Shown here: piece after piece, positions 5,795-33,332 of the stretch
Layout: each line of letters starts with the position of its first letter
How positions within the stretch are numbered: the stretch's first letter is position 1
Origin: Escherichia coli
GTDB lineage: Bacteria; Pseudomonadota; Gammaproteobacteria; Enterobacterales; Enterobacteriaceae
Strand: one strand, 5' to 3'
Length of the DNA stretch: 64,000 nt
Assembly (NCBI RefSeq): GCF_003018235.1
Contig: NZ_CP027437.1
Position numbers and translations under genes: made by a program
The notes under the pieces: model-generated
Databases searched by the model: none
Seen by the model: the letters and a program-made list of their open reading frames with translations, nothing else
Told to the model about the DNA's origin: nothing

Positions 5795-5799
5795 TCTTC

Positions 5800-5824
5800 A
5801 TACTCGCCCGAGGAGGGCGAGTAT
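5800..5824 (+). terminator. Stem-loop after ftsP (tactcgccc-gagga-gggcgagta)
   Basis: 9-bp perfect stem immediately 3' of the ftsP stop; T-rich tail is weak. Confidence 0.45.
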
Positions 5825-5904
5825 GGAATACCTTTCGATTTCTCTTTCGTTCCGGCTTATAATCCCCGGCCTTTGATTATTTTTTTATCATTTCTGGAAG
5901 CAAA

Positions 5905-10427: not shown

Positions 10428-10531
10428 ACGTTCCTCCTTTATATGAACTCACCGGAGCAGGCTCCGGTGAGGTGTTGTGAACTTAAGTCTGGACGAAATG
10501 CCCGAAAACGAAAGTTTGAGGCGTAAAAAGC

Positions 10532-11695: not shown

Positions 11696-11831
11696 TACTT
11701 GCTCCCTTTGCTGGGTCAATATGAGGGCAGAGAACGATCTGCCTGATGTTTTTCATTGTGGTCGCCAGCGCCGTACCTCTCAATGCTCATTTCTGCCAAT
11801 GTCTTGCCTATTTCTCCAGAGTGCTGGAGAA

Positions 11832-12788
11832 ATGCTACAAAATTGCGCACAATCAAATTGCCGCATTATTCCTAAGAAATTACGCGATATGAAACGTGAA
11901 GAGATTTGCCGCTTGCTGGCGGATAAAGTTAATAAACTGAAAAATAAAGAAAATGAATTGTCAGAGCTGTTGCCCGATGTGCGTTTGTTGTATGGCGAGA
12001 CGCCTTTCGCACGTACACCGGTAATGTACGAGCCTGGCATCATAATTCTCTTTTCCGGGCATAAAATCGGTTATATCAATGAACGCGTGTTTCGTTATGA
12101 TGCCAATGAATACCTGCTGCTGACGGTGCCGTTGCCGTTTGAGTGCGAAACCTATGCCACGTCAGAGGTGCCGCTGGCAGGGTTGCGTCTCAATGTCGAT
12201 ATTTTGCAGTTACAGGAACTGTTGATGGACATTGGCGAAGATGAGCATTTCCAGCCGTCGATGGCAGCCAGCGGGATTAACTCCGCCACGTTATCAGAAG
12301 AGATTTTATGCGCGGCGGAGCGGTTACTCGACGTGATGGAGCGACCACTGGATGCGCGTATTCTCGGCAAACAGATCATCCGTGAAATTCTGTACTACGT
12401 GCTGATCGGACCTTGCGGCGGCGCGTTACTGGCGCTGGTCAGTCGCCAGACTCACTTCAGCCTGATTAGCCGCGTGCTGAAACGGATTGAGAATAAATAC
12501 ACCGAAAACCTGAGCGTCGAGCAACTGGCGGCAGAAGCCAACATGAGCGTATCGGCGTTCCACCATAATTTTAAGTCTGTCACTAGCACCTCGCCGTTGC
12601 AGTATTTGAAGAATTACCGTCTGCATAAGGCGCGGATGATGATTATCCACGACGGCATGAAAGCCAGTGCGGCAGCGATGCGCGTCGGTTACGAAAGCGC
12701 ATCGCAATTTAGCCGTGAGTTTAAACGTTACTTTGGTGTGACGCCGGGGGAAGATGCGGCAAGAATGCGGGCGATGCAGGGGAATTAA
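11832..12788 (+). CDS. yqhC: AraC-family transcriptional activator of yqhD-dkgA
   Basis: 318 aa from internal ATG at 11832; C-terminal AraC HTH; divergent from yqhD. Confidence 0.85.
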
Positions 12789-12792
12789 ATAC

Positions 12793-12816
12793 GTTCCCGG
12801 TACAGCAACCGGGAAC
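12793..12816 (+). terminator. Stem-loop after yqhC (gttcccgg-N8-ccgggaac)
   Basis: 8-bp perfect inverted repeat directly 3' of the yqhC stop. Confidence 0.5.
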
Positions 12817-12834
12817 GGGGAAAATCGTCAGGCG

Positions 12835-16237: not shown

Positions 16238-16273
16238 GATGCCCGGTTGCTTTTCACAACCGGGCATTTTTTT
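16238..16273. terminator. Bidirectional rho-independent terminator between exbD and yghA
   Basis: atgcccggttg-N7-caaccgggcat followed by ttttttt. Confidence 0.75.
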
Positions 16274-19965: not shown

Positions 19966-20046
19966 TAGGTTTATCTCTTACGGGATTACGTCTTAAACAA
20001 GCATGAAAAAATAGCGTGCGCAAAAGTCGTTCTTTGCCTAAAATAT

Positions 20047-20070
20047 CGCTATATATGGCAATATATAGCG
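20047..20070. promoter_or_regulatory. Perfect 24-bp palindrome (cgctatatat-ggca-atatatagcg) 14 bp upstream of yghW
   Basis: 10-bp arms with a 4-bp spacer read directly; the location suggests an operator. Confidence 0.4.
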
Positions 20071-20083
20071 AATGAGGTGAACG

Positions 20084-26510: not shown

Positions 26511-26844
26511 GTTGTCGCTTTGCCAGAGCGCCGTTGAAATTATCCAACGGCAGGCGGAGCAGCACGATGTTAAGCGCGTCACCGCCGTGTGGCTGGAAAT
26601 TGGCGCGCTCTCCTGCGTTGAGGAGAGCGCCGTCCGTTTTAGTTTTGAAATTGTCTGCCACGGAACGGTGGCGCAAGGGTGCGATTTACATATCGTCTAT
26701 AAACCCGCCCAGGCCTGGTGCTGGGATTGCAGCCAGGTGGTGGAGATTCATCAGCACGATGCGCAGTGTCCGCTCTGTCATGGCGAGCGGTTGCGTGTCG
26801 ATACCGGCGATTCGCTGATCGTCAAAAGTATTGAAGTTGAATAA
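26503..26844 (+). CDS. hybF: Hydrogenase nickel-incorporation protein (HypA paralogue)
   Basis: 113 aa from ATG at 26503; CxxC...CxxC zinc motif. Confidence 0.9.
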   Translation: MHELSLCQSAVEIIQRQAEQHDVKRVTAVWLEIGALSCVEESAVRFSFEIVCHGTVAQGCDLHIVYKPAQAWCWDCSQVVEIHQHDAQCPLCHGERLRVDTGDSLIVKSIEVE

Positions 26845-29477: not shown

Positions 29478-29681
29478 AGTGAGTTGCCTTCTCAGTGGTA
29501 GTGTTGAAGCAGTGTAGCAGGTCACTTGCTGTACAGAATGTGAATTTTTTAACCCTTTGCGCCAGCCGCTGCGATGAGGTGTATGATTAGTCTGACCTCT
29601 GTCCGGTTAATGTCGCTGAGCAGGTAATCAGAGCACAACAATTACGCCAACTGCTTAGGTTGTATTGTTAAAGGTAAAGTG

Positions 29682-31541
29682 ATGAGCAAAGGAACGACCA
29701 GCCAGGATGCCCCGTTCGGGACATTATTGGGCTACGCCCCAGGTGGGGTAGCAATCTACTCTTCAGATTACAGTTCTCTCGATCCGCAGGAATACGAAGA
29801 TGACGCCGTATTCCGTAGCTATATCGACGACGAATATATGGGCCACAAATGGCAATGCGTTGAATTTGCTCGCCGTTTTCTCTTTCTGAATTACGGTGTG
29901 GTCTTCACTGACGTGGGTATGGCGTGGGAGATTTTCTCGCTGCGCTTCCTGCGTGAAGTGGTTAATGACAACATCCTGCCATTGCAGGCATTTCCTAATG
30001 GCTCGCCGCGTGCACCGGTCGCGGGCGCGCTTCTTATCTGGGATAAAGGCGGTGAATTTAAAGACACTGGCCATGTCGCCATCATTACCCAATTGCATGG
30101 CAACAAAGTCCGTATTGCGGAACAGAACGTGATTCATTCCCCGTTACCGCAAGGGCAACAGTGGACACGCGAGCTGGAGATGGTGGTCGAAAACGGCTGC
30201 TATACCCTTAAAGACACGTTTGATGACACCACCATTCTCGGCTGGATGATCCAGACGGAAGATACTGAATACAGCTTACCGCAGCCGGAAATTGCAGGCG
30301 AGCTGCTGAAAATCAGCGGAGCGCGCCTGGAAAACAAAGGTCAGTTTGACGGTAAATGGCTGGATGAAAAAGATCCGCTACAAAACGCCTATGTGCAGGC
30401 CAACGGTCAGGTGATCAATCAGGATCCGTATCATTACTACACCATTACCGAGAGTGCCGAGCAGGAGCTGATTAAAGCCACCAACGAGCTGCACCTGATG
30501 TATCTTCACGCCACCGACAAGGTGCTGAAAGATGACAACCTGCTGGCGCTGTTCGACATCCCAAAAATCCTCTGGCCACGTTTGCGTCTCTCCTGGCAGC
30601 GTCGCCGTCACCATATGATCACCGGTCGTATGGATTTCTGTATGGACGAACGTGGCCTGAAGGTCTACGAATACAACGCCGATTCCGCCTCCTGTCATAC
30701 CGAAGCGGGCTTGATCCTCGAACGTTGGGCGGAGCAGGGCTATAAAGGCAACGGCTTCAATCCGGCGGAAGGGCTGATTAACGAACTGGCTGGTGCCTGG
30801 AAACACAGTCGTGCACGTCCGTTTGTCCATATCATGCAGGACAAAGATATCGAGGAAAACTATCACGCGCAGTTTATGGAGCAGGCGCTGCACCAGGCGG
30901 GCTTTGAAACGCGTATCTTGCGCGGGCTGGATGAACTGGGCTGGGATGCTGCCGGGCAACTGATTGATGGGGAAGGGCGACTGGTTAACTGCGTGTGGAA
31001 AACCTGGGCGTGGGAAACCGCGTTTGATCAGATTCGTGAAGTTAGCGACCGTGAGTTTGCTGCGGTGCCGATCCGTACCGGTCATCCGCAAAATGAAGTG
31101 CGTCTTATCGACGTATTGCTGCGCCCGGAAGTGCTGGTCTTTGAACCTCTGTGGACAGTGATCCCCGGCAACAAAGCGATTCTGCCGATCCTCTGGTCGC
31201 TGTTCCCGCACCATCGTTACCTGCTGGATACCGATTTCACTGTTAATGATGAACTGGTAAAAACAGGTTACGCAGTGAAACCGATCGCCGGTCGCTGTGG
31301 CAGTAACATCGACCTCGTCAGCCATCATGAAGAGGTGCTGGACAAAACCAGCGGTAAATTTGCCGAGCAGAAAAACATCTATCAGCAACTGTGGTGTTTG
31401 CCGAAAGTGGACGGTAAATACATTCAGGTATGTACCTTCACCGTTGGCGGCAACTACGGTGGGACGTGTTTGCGCGGTGATGAATCACTGGTCATTAAAA
31501 AAGAGAGTGATATTGAACCGTTAATTGTGGTGAAAGAGTAA
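29682..31541 (+). CDS. gss: Bifunctional glutathionylspermidine synthetase/amidase
   Basis: 619 aa; N-terminal CHAP amidase and C-terminal ATP-grasp synthetase; MSKGTTSQDAPFGTLLGY. Confidence 0.9.
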   Translation: MSKGTTSQDAPFGTLLGYAPGGVAIYSSDYSSLDPQEYEDDAVFRSYIDDEYMGHKWQCVEFARRFLFLNYGVVFTDVGMAWEIFSLRFLREVVNDNILPLQAFPNGSPRAPVAGALLIWDKGGEFKDTGHVAIITQLHGNKVRIAEQNVIHSPLPQGQQWTRELEMVVENGCYTLKDTFDDTTILGWMIQTEDTEYSLPQPEIAGELLKISGARLENKGQFDGKWLDEKDPLQNAYVQANGQVINQDPYHYYTITESAEQELIKATNELHLMYLHATDKVLKDDNLLALFDIPKILWPRLRLSWQRRRHHMITGRMDFCMDERGLKVYEYNADSASCHTEAGLILERWAEQGYKGNGFNPAEGLINELAGAWKHSRARPFVHIMQDKDIEENYHAQFMEQALHQAGFETRILRGLDELGWDAAGQLIDGEGRLVNCVWKTWAWETAFDQIREVSDREFAAVPIRTGHPQNEVRLIDVLLRPEVLVFEPLWTVIPGNKAILPILWSLFPHHRYLLDTDFTVNDELVKTGYAVKPIAGRCGSNIDLVSHHEEVLDKTSGKFAEQKNIYQQLWCLPKVDGKYIQVCTFTVGGNYGGTCLRGDESLVIKKESDIEPLIVVKE

Positions 31542-31556
31542 TACATGTTGTAGCAA

Positions 31557-31591
31557 CCCTGCACTGATTATGAAGAATAATCAGTGCAGGG
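31557..31591 (+). terminator. Perfect 15-bp-stem hairpin after gss (ccctgcactgattat-gaaga-ataatcagtgcaggg)
   Basis: Read directly; no U-tract follows, so it may be a terminator or an RNA-stability element. Confidence 0.5.
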
Positions 31592-31832
31592 ATTAATCAA
31601 AATATTCAATATTTATATATTCCAATATTTATTCATTTCATATGTGAATGTATTAACCAGTGGAATACCTGTGTTTTGATTATTTCTAAAGGTTTTGAAT
31701 GAATGCTTATTATCTGATACACAAGAAATAACACTCTTTTTATCGTTAAAAAATGATATTTCACTTTGCCCACGCCGTTAAAGTCACTGATAATGCGTCC
31801 GTTCGTAAATTCAAAATGGCGTAATCTAATAT

Positions 31833-33332
31833 ATGCTAAATTTATTTGTTGGCCTTGATATATACACAGGGTTTTTGTTATTACTTGCTCTGGCATTTGT
31901 GTTGTTCTACGAAGCAATCAATGGTTTTCATGACACGGCGAATGCGGTGGCAACCGTTATTTATACTCGTGCCATGCAGCCACAGCTTGCCGTGGTGATG
32001 GCGGCATTTTTTAACTTTTTTGGCGTATTGCTAGGCGGACTTAGCGTTGCCTATGCCATTGTCCATATGTTGCCAACCGATTTGTTGCTGAATATGGGGT
32101 CAACTCACGGCCTGGCGATGGTCTTTTCCATGCTGCTGGCGGCGATTATCTGGAACCTGGGAACGTGGTTCTTTGGTTTACCGGCCTCCAGTTCGCATAC
32201 CTTGATTGGTGCGATTATCGGCATCGGTTTAACCAACGCGCTGTTAACCGGCTCATCGGTGATGGATGCGTTAAACCTGCGTGAAGTGACCAAAATTTTC
32301 TCCTCGCTGATTGTTTCCCCTATCGTCGGCCTGGTCATTGCGGGAGGCCTGATATTCCTGCTGCGCCGCTACTGGAGCGGGACGAAAAAGCGTGACCGTA
32401 TTCACCGCATTCCGGAAGATCGCAAAAAGAAAAAAGGCAAACGTAAGCCACCATTCTGGACGCGTATTGCGCTGATTGTTTCCGCTGCGGGCGTGGCGTT
32501 TTCGCACGGCGCGAACGACGGGCAGAAAGGGATCGGCCTGGTGATGCTGGTACTGGTGGGGATTGCCCCTGCTGGTTTCGTCGTCAATATGAATGCGTCC
32601 GGCTATGAAATTACCCGTACCCGCGATGCCGTCACCAACTTTGAACACTATCTGCAACAGCATCCTGAACTGCCGCAGAAGTTGATTGCGATGGAACCTC
32701 CATTGCCTGCGGCATCGACTGATGGCACGCAAGTAACGGAGTTTCACTGTCATCCGGCAAATACCTTTGATGCGATTGCGCGCGTTAAAACGATGCTGCC
32801 AGGCAATATGGAAAGTTACGAGCCGTTAAGCGTGAGTCAGCGCAGCCAGCTGCGCCGCATTATGCTGTGCATCTCTGATACCTCCGCGAAGCTGGCGAAA
32901 CTGCCAGGCGTCAGTAAAGAAGACCAGAACCTGCTGAAAAAACTGCGCAGCGATATGTTAAGCACCATTGAGTACGCTCCGGTGTGGATCATCATGGCAG
33001 TAGCTCTGGCGCTCGGCATTGGCACCATGATTGGCTGGCGTCGTGTAGCGATGACCATCGGTGAGAAGATTGGTAAGCGCGGCATGACGTATGCGCAAGG
33101 CATGGCGGCACAAATGACGGCGGCAGTGTCTATCGGCCTTGCCAGTTATATTGGGATGCCCGTCTCCACAACACACGTCCTCTCGTCTGCGGTAGCAGGG
33201 ACGATGGTGGTGGACGGCGGTGGGTTACAGCGTAAAACGGTAACCAGCATCCTGATGGCGTGGGTGTTTACTTTACCGGCGGCGATTTTTCTTTCTGGTG
33301 GGTTGTACTGGATAGCATTGCAGTTGATTTAA
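31833..33332 (+). CDS. pitB: Low-affinity inorganic phosphate transporter
   Basis: 499-aa hydrophobic ORF of the PiT family; synteny. Confidence 0.9.

What the first reader, a model, noticed from the sequence alone, without database searches (positions are those of the whole stretch)
31557..31591. Long perfect hairpin after gss without a U-tract
A 15-bp perfect stem with a 5-nt loop follows the gss stop but is not followed by a T-run. It sits before a long AT-rich region upstream of pitB. It could be a Rho-dependent or stability element rather than an intrinsic terminator.
Basis: seen in the sequence. Interest (0 to 1): 0.2.

Follow-up and report, generated by a model that had tools for sequence, protein, structure and literature searches.

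The report
Stem-loop ending the gss mRNA
The hairpin is real and marks where the E. coli gss messenger RNA ends, four bases past the stem; it is an ordinary example of the U-tract-less 3' stem-loops that cap many bacterial transcripts, and the site is already listed in a published transcript-end catalogue.

Summary
Arms 31557-31571 and 31577-31591 form a perfect 15-bp stem with loop GAAGA. The stem starts 15 nt after the gss stop and has no T-run on either strand. It is followed by 241 nt of 73% A+T DNA before pitB. It is far beyond chance: the longest perfect hairpin in the window, 0 of 100 shuffles, fold z = -6.7.

The element is single-copy and syntenic in about 5,400 E. coli genomes and is conserved across Escherichia species. 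Three pairs show two-sided compensatory changes. Three fully paired alleles exist, and their one-step intermediates are all observed. The window carries a rare allele (24 genomes).

SMRT-Cappable-seq in K-12 (Yan et al. 2018) lists a gss-only transcript ending at 3136609, 4 nt past the stem. Read-through is 6 of 120 reads in M9 and 0 of 35 in rich medium.

Most likely this is the protective 3' stem-loop of a transcript that terminates, probably by Rho, in the AT-rich silenced spacer and is then trimmed back (Dar & Sorek 2018 class). Rho dependence itself could not be tested. One Term-seq/bicyclomycin study lists nothing at this site. Verdict: ordinary, low interest.

The parts
29594..29594 (+). 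Transcription start of the gss transcript unit (equivalent of K-12 3138610)
   Evidence: Yan et al. 2018 Supplementary Data 1 and 2 give TSS 3138610 for b2988. Window 29560-29700 is 100% identical to K-12 3138644-3138504 on the minus strand, which places the TSS at 29594, 7 nt after a TATGAT box.
29682..31541 (+). gss coding sequence (bifunctional glutathionylspermidine amidase/synthase), stop TAA at 31539-31541
   Evidence: ORF 29679-31541. RefSeq annotation of matching genomes names it gss. The ATG at 29682 aligns with the K-12 start.
31542..31556 (+). 15-nt spacer between the stop codon and the stem (TACATGTTGTAGCAA); no A-tract
   Evidence: Sequence read directly.
31557..31571 (+). 5' arm of the hairpin
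   Evidence: the repeat finder pair I1, 100% complementary. Covariation with the 3' arm.
31572..31576 (+). Loop GAAGA (CAAAA in E. whittamii; 6 nt in E. albertii)
31577..31591 (+). 3' arm of the hairpin
31592..31595 (+). 4-nt tail AUUA up to the mapped steady-state 3' end of gss mRNA (equivalent of K-12 3136609)
   Evidence: The K-12 hairpin lies at 3136647-3136613 on the minus strand. The TTS is at 3136609 in both M9 and rich medium. The position is uncertain by 1-2 nt because the next bases are A (inference).
31592..31832 (+). Untranslated AT-rich spacer before pitB. It is the inferred zone of the actual, diffuse termination. It has two C>G windows (31592-31669 and 31712-31789) and a promoter-like site for pitB at 31766-31794.
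   Evidence: Composition. C/G ratios of 1.62 and 1.84, the 97th and 99th percentiles of the window. Promoter scan. The few read-through reads extend a median of 212 nt (M9) and 96 nt (rich), so they end inside this spacer. The pitB locus lies in a tsEPOD.
31833..33332 (+). pitB coding sequence; downstream neighbour, not co-transcribed with gss in the published data
   Evidence: ORF and annotation. No transcription unit containing b2987 appears in Yan et al., and gss has a single transcriptional context.

Best explanation
The palindrome is transcribed as the last structured element of a monocistronic, roughly 2.0-kb gss mRNA (window 29594 to about 31595). It forms a 15-bp RNA stem-loop that defines the mature 3' end of that mRNA. 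Shown: the structure, its conservation with compensatory changes, and a sharp steady-state 3' end 4 nt past the stem with almost no longer transcripts. Inferred: RNA polymerase mostly runs past the hairpin into the 241-nt untranslated, AT-rich, nucleoid-protein-silenced spacer. There it is released diffusely, most likely by Rho acting on the ribosome-free RNA. The 3'-to-5' exonucleases PNPase and RNase II then trim the tail back to the stem, which blocks them. The result is a stabilised gss mRNA and insulation of pitB from gss transcription.
For: Structure: a perfect 15-bp stem, -25.3 kcal/mol, z = -6.7.

Conservation: the element is single-copy and syntenic in 5402/5426 E. coli genomes. The majority allele is identical in 4036 genomes, as conserved as the adjacent coding flank (3936) and more than the spacer downstream (2960).

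Pairing: 95.6% of cells are paired, against 28-47% when partners are slid. Three pairs have changes on both sides. The covariation score is 0.170 against 0.121 in shuffles (2/500 reach it). There are three fully paired alleles (K-12, Yu5, window), and the intermediates C.A and U.G are observed. All alleles fold to the same hairpin at -20 to -27 kcal/mol.

Direct 3' end: Yan et al. 2018 list a TTS at 3136609 for b2988. In M9, 76 of 120 reads end there, 6 pass through and 3 end within 50 bp downstream. In rich medium, 26 of 35 end there and 0 pass through. The rare longer reads stop 96-212 nt further on, still before or at the very start of pitB.

[quoted passage not shown] Here there is no U-tract or A-tract, and C/G is 1.62 immediately downstream.

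Context: the downstream DNA is a silenced tsEPOD. In 80 other species the same position after gss often carries an unrelated hairpin, with a T-tail in 28 and without one in about 21-23.
Against: Rho dependence is not demonstrated. The Adams et al. 2021 tables of Term-seq 3' ends and bicyclomycin-sensitive regions contain no entry for gss, pitB or these coordinates. This may reflect low expression, since there are only 35 TSS reads in rich medium.

The spacer is C-poor (10-17 C per 78 nt) and its YC counts are unremarkable, so it is not a textbook rut site.

The 3'-end method cannot separate termination from trimming.

Strand assignment from wobble pairs is only suggestive: about 6-7 G.U events against 3 C.A events.

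Compensatory changes in a DNA palindrome can also arise by quasi-palindrome template switching without selection on RNA (own knowledge).
Confidence: 0.6

Rival explanations
1. Non-canonical intrinsic terminator. The strong hairpin, followed by an all-A/U stretch (AUUAAU) that gives a weak RNA:DNA hybrid, releases RNA polymerase at or just after the stem without Rho. A nucleoid-protein roadblock at the edge of the silenced AT-rich domain may help.
For: The 3' end is sharp and only 0-5% of transcripts pass it, placing it among the tighter sites in that dataset. The six bases after the stem are all A or T. No bicyclomycin-sensitive region is listed here. Many other genera have a canonical terminator at the same position after gss. 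The downstream DNA is a tsEPOD.
Against: There are only 3 U in the 8 nt after the stem and no run of U, and the consensus scan does not call it. E. coli RNA polymerase generally needs a U-tract for hairpin-driven release (own knowledge). The mapped end is 4 nt from the stem rather than the usual 7-9 nt inside a U-tract (own knowledge). Yan et al. note that low read-through sites tend to have better-defined poly-U, which this site lacks.
Confidence: 0.2
2. Processing site. A longer gss-pitB or gss-spacer transcript is cut endonucleolytically at or next to the hairpin (RNase III or RNase E), and the hairpin is the recognition or stop structure.
For: The 3'-end method reports steady-state ends and cannot exclude processing. 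The double-stranded stem is in principle a dsRNA substrate.
Against: No transcript covering pitB was recorded, and gss has one transcriptional context. Only 7 of the SMRT-Cappable-seq TTS overlapped known RNase III sites. A 15-bp stem is shorter than typical RNase III substrates of about two helical turns (own knowledge). The end lies outside the stem, not within it.
Confidence: 0.08
3. DNA-level palindrome with no RNA role. It could be a protein-binding or cruciform site, or a relic of the junction between core gss and the Escherichia-specific pitB segment. It would be kept symmetrical by quasi-palindrome template switching, and the RNA 3' end would be a by-product.
For: The hairpin family and pitB downstream of gss have the same distribution, Escherichia only. 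Homology with other genera ends near the hairpin. Every observed change is a transition, and mismatched intermediates persist in dozens of genomes. The strand asymmetry of wobbles is not significant.
Against: A precise, abundant RNA 3' end sits 4 nt past the stem on the gss strand. The sequence is unique in the genome and matches no repeat family. The loop and stem sequences differ between species while pairing is kept, which does not suit a sequence-specific protein site. Other genera place unrelated hairpins at the same transcript position.
Confidence: 0.07

Closest known systems
U-tract-less protective stem-loops at the steady-state 3' ends of Rho-dependent E. coli transcripts (Dar & Sorek 2018, NAR, PMC6061677)
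   Same: It is a stable stem-loop directly upstream of a precise 3' end. It has no U-rich tail and no upstream A-tract. There is a mild C>G bias just downstream, it sits in an intergenic position after a stop codon, and the gene is expressed at a low level.
   Different: Rho dependence and exonuclease trimming have not been measured for gss. The downstream RNA is unusually AT-rich and C-poor. I could not check whether gss is in their tables, because the supplements are not held.
trp operon trp t hairpin with Rho-dependent trp t' downstream (classical case of 3' exonucleolytic maturation back to a hairpin; own knowledge)
   Same: The logic is the same: a hairpin after the last gene marks the mature end, while real termination occurs about 100-250 nt further on. 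Here the rare long reads end 96-212 nt downstream.
   Different: trp t has a U-rich tail and some intrinsic activity, and this hairpin has none. No genetic or in vitro work exists for gss.
Canonical intrinsic (Rho-independent) terminators
   Same: It is a strong stem-loop shortly after a stop codon with a sharp RNA end. Relatives in Citrobacter, Enterobacter, Lelliottia and Leclercia carry true terminators at this position.
   Different: It has no U-tract and no A-tract, only 47% G+C in the stem, and the RNA end is 4 nt from the stem.
REP/BIME elements acting as mRNA 3' stabilisers
   Same: It is an extragenic palindrome that can block 3' exonucleases and is associated with Rho-dependent ends.
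   Different: REPs are a multi-copy family with a shared consensus. This sequence is single-copy per genome, and no repeat feature is annotated between gss and pitB in K-12.

Membership tests
Canonical intrinsic terminator | Stable G+C-rich stem-loop | tested here: met
   15 bp, -25.3 kcal/mol. The G+C content is moderate at 47%.
Canonical intrinsic terminator | U-tract (about 5 or more U in 8) immediately 3' of the stem | tested here: not met
   The tail AUUAAUCA has 3 U in 8, and the consensus scan finds no terminator here on either strand.
Canonical intrinsic terminator | Factor-independent release by RNA polymerase in vitro | not testable with these tools
   This needs in vitro transcription.
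U-less protective 3' stem-loop of Rho-dependent transcripts (Dar & Sorek class) | Energetically stable stem-loop with the dominant steady-state 3' end immediately downstream | tested here: met
   The published TTS at 3136609 is 4 nt after the K-12 stem end at 3136613, in two growth conditions.
U-less protective 3' stem-loop of Rho-dependent transcripts (Dar & Sorek class) | No U-rich tail and no upstream A-tract | tested here: met
   The head is GTTGTAGCAA and the tail is ATTAATCAAA.
U-less protective 3' stem-loop of Rho-dependent transcripts (Dar & Sorek class) | C-over-G bias (rut-like) downstream | tested here: inconclusive
   C/G is 1.62 in 31592-31669 and 1.84 in 31712-31789 (97th and 99th percentiles). 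However, absolute C is low and YC counts are average or below.
U-less protective 3' stem-loop of Rho-dependent transcripts (Dar & Sorek class) | Bicyclomycin- or Rho-dependent read-through past the 3' end | tested here: inconclusive
   The Adams et al. 2021 Rho-region table has no entry near 31363xx-31367xx or for gss or pitB. gss is weakly expressed in rich medium. The Peters 2009/2012 and Dar & Sorek tables are not held.
U-less protective 3' stem-loop of Rho-dependent transcripts (Dar & Sorek class) | Longer 3' tails in pnp or rnb mutants | not testable with these tools
   No accessible data.
REP/BIME repeats | Many copies per genome sharing a consensus | tested here: not met
   There is one site per genome. 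The apparent second 'place' is the same perfect palindrome matched on the other strand. No other copy exists in the window, and K-12 has no repeat feature here.
Any curated Rfam RNA family | Covariance-model score at or above the gathering threshold | tested here: not met
   The best hit is 28.7 bits against a threshold of 49 (rli38, E = 0.13). All hits are below threshold.

The most novel reading that the evidence does not exclude
The hairpin is itself an efficient terminator for E. coli RNA polymerase (95-100% apparent efficiency) despite lacking a U-tract. It might work through the weak all-A/U hybrid that follows it together with a nucleoid-protein (H-NS-type, tsEPOD) roadblock at the edge of the silenced pitB domain. 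This would be a Rho-independent, U-tract-independent mode of termination at a boundary between expressed and silenced DNA.
Probability: 0.1. Interest if true: 0.45.

Novelty: already known. Interest (0 to 1): 0.1.

Why it matters
It matters little beyond annotation. It fixes the 3' boundary of the gss transcript and explains why pitB, a poorly expressed and silenced paralogue, is not co-transcribed with gss. It also adds a clean natural example of stepwise compensatory evolution in a 3' stem-loop, with three fully paired alleles and their intermediates all segregating in one species. It could serve as a convenient test case for separating Rho-plus-trimming from hairpin-driven termination at a U-less site with very low read-through.

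Tried and rejected
1. Rfam search of 31000-32200 at E <= 10 returned only sub-threshold noise.

2. A search for further copies in the window found none beyond chance. I rejected REP or repeat-family membership.

3. The metagenome scan with the 16-nt loop/inner-stem core was a poor choice. Only L106 and L167 were E. coli.

4. My early impression that the hairpin is hypervariable relative to its flanks was wrong. It arose because the window allele is rare. With K-12 as reference the hairpin is as conserved as the coding flank.

5. Strand assignment from G.U versus C.A asymmetry is not significant (about 6-7 versus 3 events), so I do not rely on it.

6. Literature on gss with pitB, the pitB promoter, and PhoB says nothing about the hairpin. 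PhoB does not bind or regulate pitB.

7. The supplements of Dar & Sorek 2018, Gruenberger 2022 and BacTermFinder are not held. Ju 2019, Lalanne 2018, Peters 2009/2012 and Harris 2001 are not held at all.

8. The Adams 2021 Term-seq and BCM tables have no entry at this locus.

Full report
**Observation.** The sequence is as described. CCCTGCACTGATTAT (31557-31571) and ATAATCAGTGCAGGG (31577-31591) are perfectly complementary over 15 nt around the loop GAAGA. The gss ORF ends with TAA at 31539-31541, so the stem begins 15 nt after the stop. pitB starts at 33 nt... correction: pitB starts at 31833 (gene names from RefSeq annotation of matching genomes). The eight bases after the stem (ATTAATCA) contain three T. 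The eight bases after it on the other strand (TTGCTACA) also contain three T. A consensus terminator scan does not call the site. The 241-nt spacer before pitB is 72.6% A+T, in a window that is about 48% A+T.

The hairpin is not a chance feature.
- It folds at -25.3 kcal/mol.
- The 91-nt context has z = -6.67 against dinucleotide shuffles.
- It is the longest of nine perfect hairpins of >=10 bp in the window, where 0.39 are expected.
- None of 100 shuffles produced a 15-bp stem.
- Eight of those nine hairpins also lack a T-run, so U-less hairpins are common in this genome.

**What it is not.** No Rfam family reaches threshold. It is not a repeat family. There is no other copy in the window and one site per genome in E. 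coli. The 'two places' reported for perfect alleles are the same palindrome matched on both strands. K-12 has no repeat or RNA feature annotated between gss and pitB.

**Comparative evidence.** The site is syntenic in 5402 of 5426 complete E. coli genomes. I first thought the hairpin was more variable than its flanks. That was an artefact of the window carrying a rare allele. With K-12 as reference, the 49 nt around the hairpin are identical in 4036 genomes. The adjacent gss 3' flank is identical in 3936 and the AT-rich segment downstream in 2960.

The window allele is exact in only 24 genomes, including ATCC 8739 and many porcine ETEC strains. It differs from the majority by two double changes. 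Counting pairs from the outside, pair 4 is U-A instead of C-G, and pair 6 is C-G instead of U-A.

A third perfect allele exists in strain Yu5, with C-G at both pairs. The single-step intermediates are also found:
- C.A at pair 6 in strain C4;
- U.G at pair 6 in a gut-metagenome contig;
- C.A at pair 4 in a class of at most about 50 genomes.

Other alleles carry only G.U wobbles: BL21 type at pair 10, and O157 type at pairs 1 and 12.

Across the genus, Escherichia sp. MOD1, E. whittamii, Escherichia sp. E1V33 and E. albertii keep the hairpin. They show a further double change (pair 7, A-U to G-C) and altered loops.

On twelve distinct alleles, 95.6% of cells are paired, against 28-47% when partners are slid. 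Three pairs change on both sides. The covariation score is 0.170 against 0.121 in shuffles, and 2 of 500 shuffles reach it (the 11-allele version is). Every allele folds to the same hairpin at -20 to -27 kcal/mol.

Two caveats apply. The excess of G.U over C.A single changes (about 6-7 events against 3) is too small to fix the strand. Compensatory changes in a DNA palindrome can also arise by quasi-palindrome template switching (own knowledge).

**Wider context.** In 80 species carrying gss, only the four Escherichia loci have this hairpin, and only they have pitB downstream. Elsewhere, the 90 nt after gss carry an unrelated hairpin with a T-rich tail in 28 species (typical terminators in Citrobacter, Enterobacter, Lelliottia and Leclercia). 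About 21-23 species have a hairpin without a T-tail, for example Salmonella enterica subsp. arizonae and diarizonae. In 29 species there is nothing comparable. A structured end to the gss transcript is therefore recurrent, and a U-less version is not peculiar to Escherichia.

**Direct evidence.** K-12 gss is at 3136663-3138522 on the minus strand, and the hairpin is at 3136647-3136613. SMRT-Cappable-seq sequences full-length 5'-triphosphate transcripts. It lists a termination site for b2988 alone, with 3' end 3136609 and TSS 3138610, flagged 'novelTTS' in both conditions.

| Condition | Reads starting at TSS | Reads ending at TTS | Passing through | Ending within 50 bp downstream | Median read-through |
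|---|---|---|---|---|---|
| M9 | 120 | 76 | 6 | 3 | 212 nt |
| Rich | 35 | 26 | 0 | 1 | 96 nt |

The operon table gives b2988 as monocistronic, the same as RegulonDB. gss has one transcriptional context in each medium. b2987 (pitB) appears in no table, although one file was truncated when stored.

The 3' end is 4 nt past the stem, which corresponds to window position 31595. The TSS corresponds to 29594, because the two sequences are identical there. The authors define a TTS as a position with at least 10 reads and more than 200 times the random expectation. They state that capture of termination sites is indirect, so termination and 3' processing are not separated.

By contrast, the Term-seq and bicyclomycin tables of Adams et al. 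2021 have no entry for gss, pitB or these coordinates. Those files are held complete.

**Mechanism.** The anatomy matches the class defined by Dar & Sorek 2018. They describe Rho-dependent transcripts with precise steady-state ends immediately downstream of stable stem-loops. These stem-loops lack U-rich tails and upstream A-tracts, and are followed by a mild C-over-G bias. The ends arise because diffuse termination further downstream is followed by PNPase and RNase II trimming back to the stem.

Several features here fit that model:
- The RNA after the gss stop is untranslated for about 290 nt.
- C/G is 1.62 in the first 78 nt after the stem and 1.84 at 31712-31789.
- The few long reads end 96-212 nt downstream, inside the spacer.
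- The pitB locus lies in a transcriptionally silent, heavily protein-occupied domain (Bryant et al. 2014).

I therefore favour a protective 3' stem-loop with termination in the spacer, probably by Rho (confidence about 0.6). The weak points are that Rho dependence is unmeasured, the spacer is C-poor, and one BCM dataset lists nothing.

The main rival is that the hairpin terminates by itself despite having no U-tract (0.2). That would fit the very low read-through but runs against what is known of E. coli RNA polymerase. Endonucleolytic processing (0.08) and a purely DNA-level palindrome (0.07) are less likely, for the reasons given under each rival.

**Comparison and novelty.** The element works like the Dar & Sorek class and like the classical trp t/t' arrangement (own knowledge). 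It fails the defining U-tract test for canonical intrinsic terminators and the multi-copy test for REP elements. The site is already catalogued as a transcript end (Yan et al. 2018), and its kind is well described, so I rate it already known and of low interest. What this analysis adds is the link between that catalogued end and a conserved, covarying U-less hairpin, together with the allele series.

**Verdict.** Interest is 0.1.

Noticed in passing
L006 (strain 360D-1) about 330-411; L212 (strain AST205) 590-2500; window equivalent 31584-31596: There are two independent IS1 insertions at the hairpin. In 360D-1, IS1 sits inside the 3' arm, after ATAATCAG. In AST205, two IS1 copies start 4 nt after the stem, which is exactly at the mapped RNA 3' end. 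These strains have lost or displaced the gss 3' structure.
   Followed up: partly
window 31557-31591 compared with L087, L215, L001, L208, L106: This is a complete stepwise compensatory series within one species: three perfectly paired alleles (K-12, Yu5, window) linked by observed C.A and U.G intermediates. The window allele is the rarest, with 24 genomes including ATCC 8739 and porcine ETEC.
   Followed up: yes
L004 (O157:H7 BB24-1) and L005 (STS73-1-E), pitB at locus 584 onward: pitB is annotated as an incomplete pseudogene (missing C-terminus) in O157:H7 and in strain STS73-1-E. This is consistent with pitB being dispensable.
   Followed up: no
window 31592-33332; loci L007-L086: pitB lies downstream of gss only in Escherichia, 4 of 80 species loci. 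The AT-rich spacer and pitB look like a genus-specific addition next to a core gene. The K-12 pitB locus is reported to be in a silenced tsEPOD.
   Followed up: partly
window 5799-5825, 10448-10471, 11810-11833, 12792-12817, 16239-16267, 20046-20071, 26605-26630, 55793-55819: There are eight further perfect hairpins of 10-11 bp. Only 16239-16267 has the A-run/T-run of a canonical, possibly bidirectional, terminator. The others are U-less like the gss hairpin and were not examined further.
   Followed up: no
window 31766-31794 (+) and 31781-31753 (-): There are two overlapping promoter-like matches in the spacer. The + strand one (TTGCCC, 17 nt spacer, GATAAT) is well placed to be the pitB promoter, about 35 nt upstream of the ATG. 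The number of matches is no more than shuffles give.
   Followed up: no
loci L011, L012 (Salmonella enterica subsp. arizonae and diarizonae), +15 to +46 after the gss stop: An unrelated U-less 13-14 bp hairpin (CGGGATATCGGC...GCCGATATCCCG) occupies the same offset after the gss stop as the Escherichia hairpin. This suggests turnover of sequence while the position and type of structure are kept.
   Followed up: partly
window 29582-29594: The published gss TSS (K-12 3138610) maps to window 29594, 7 nt after a TATGAT box. This gives an 88-nt 5' UTR. The region is 100% identical to K-12.
   Followed up: yes
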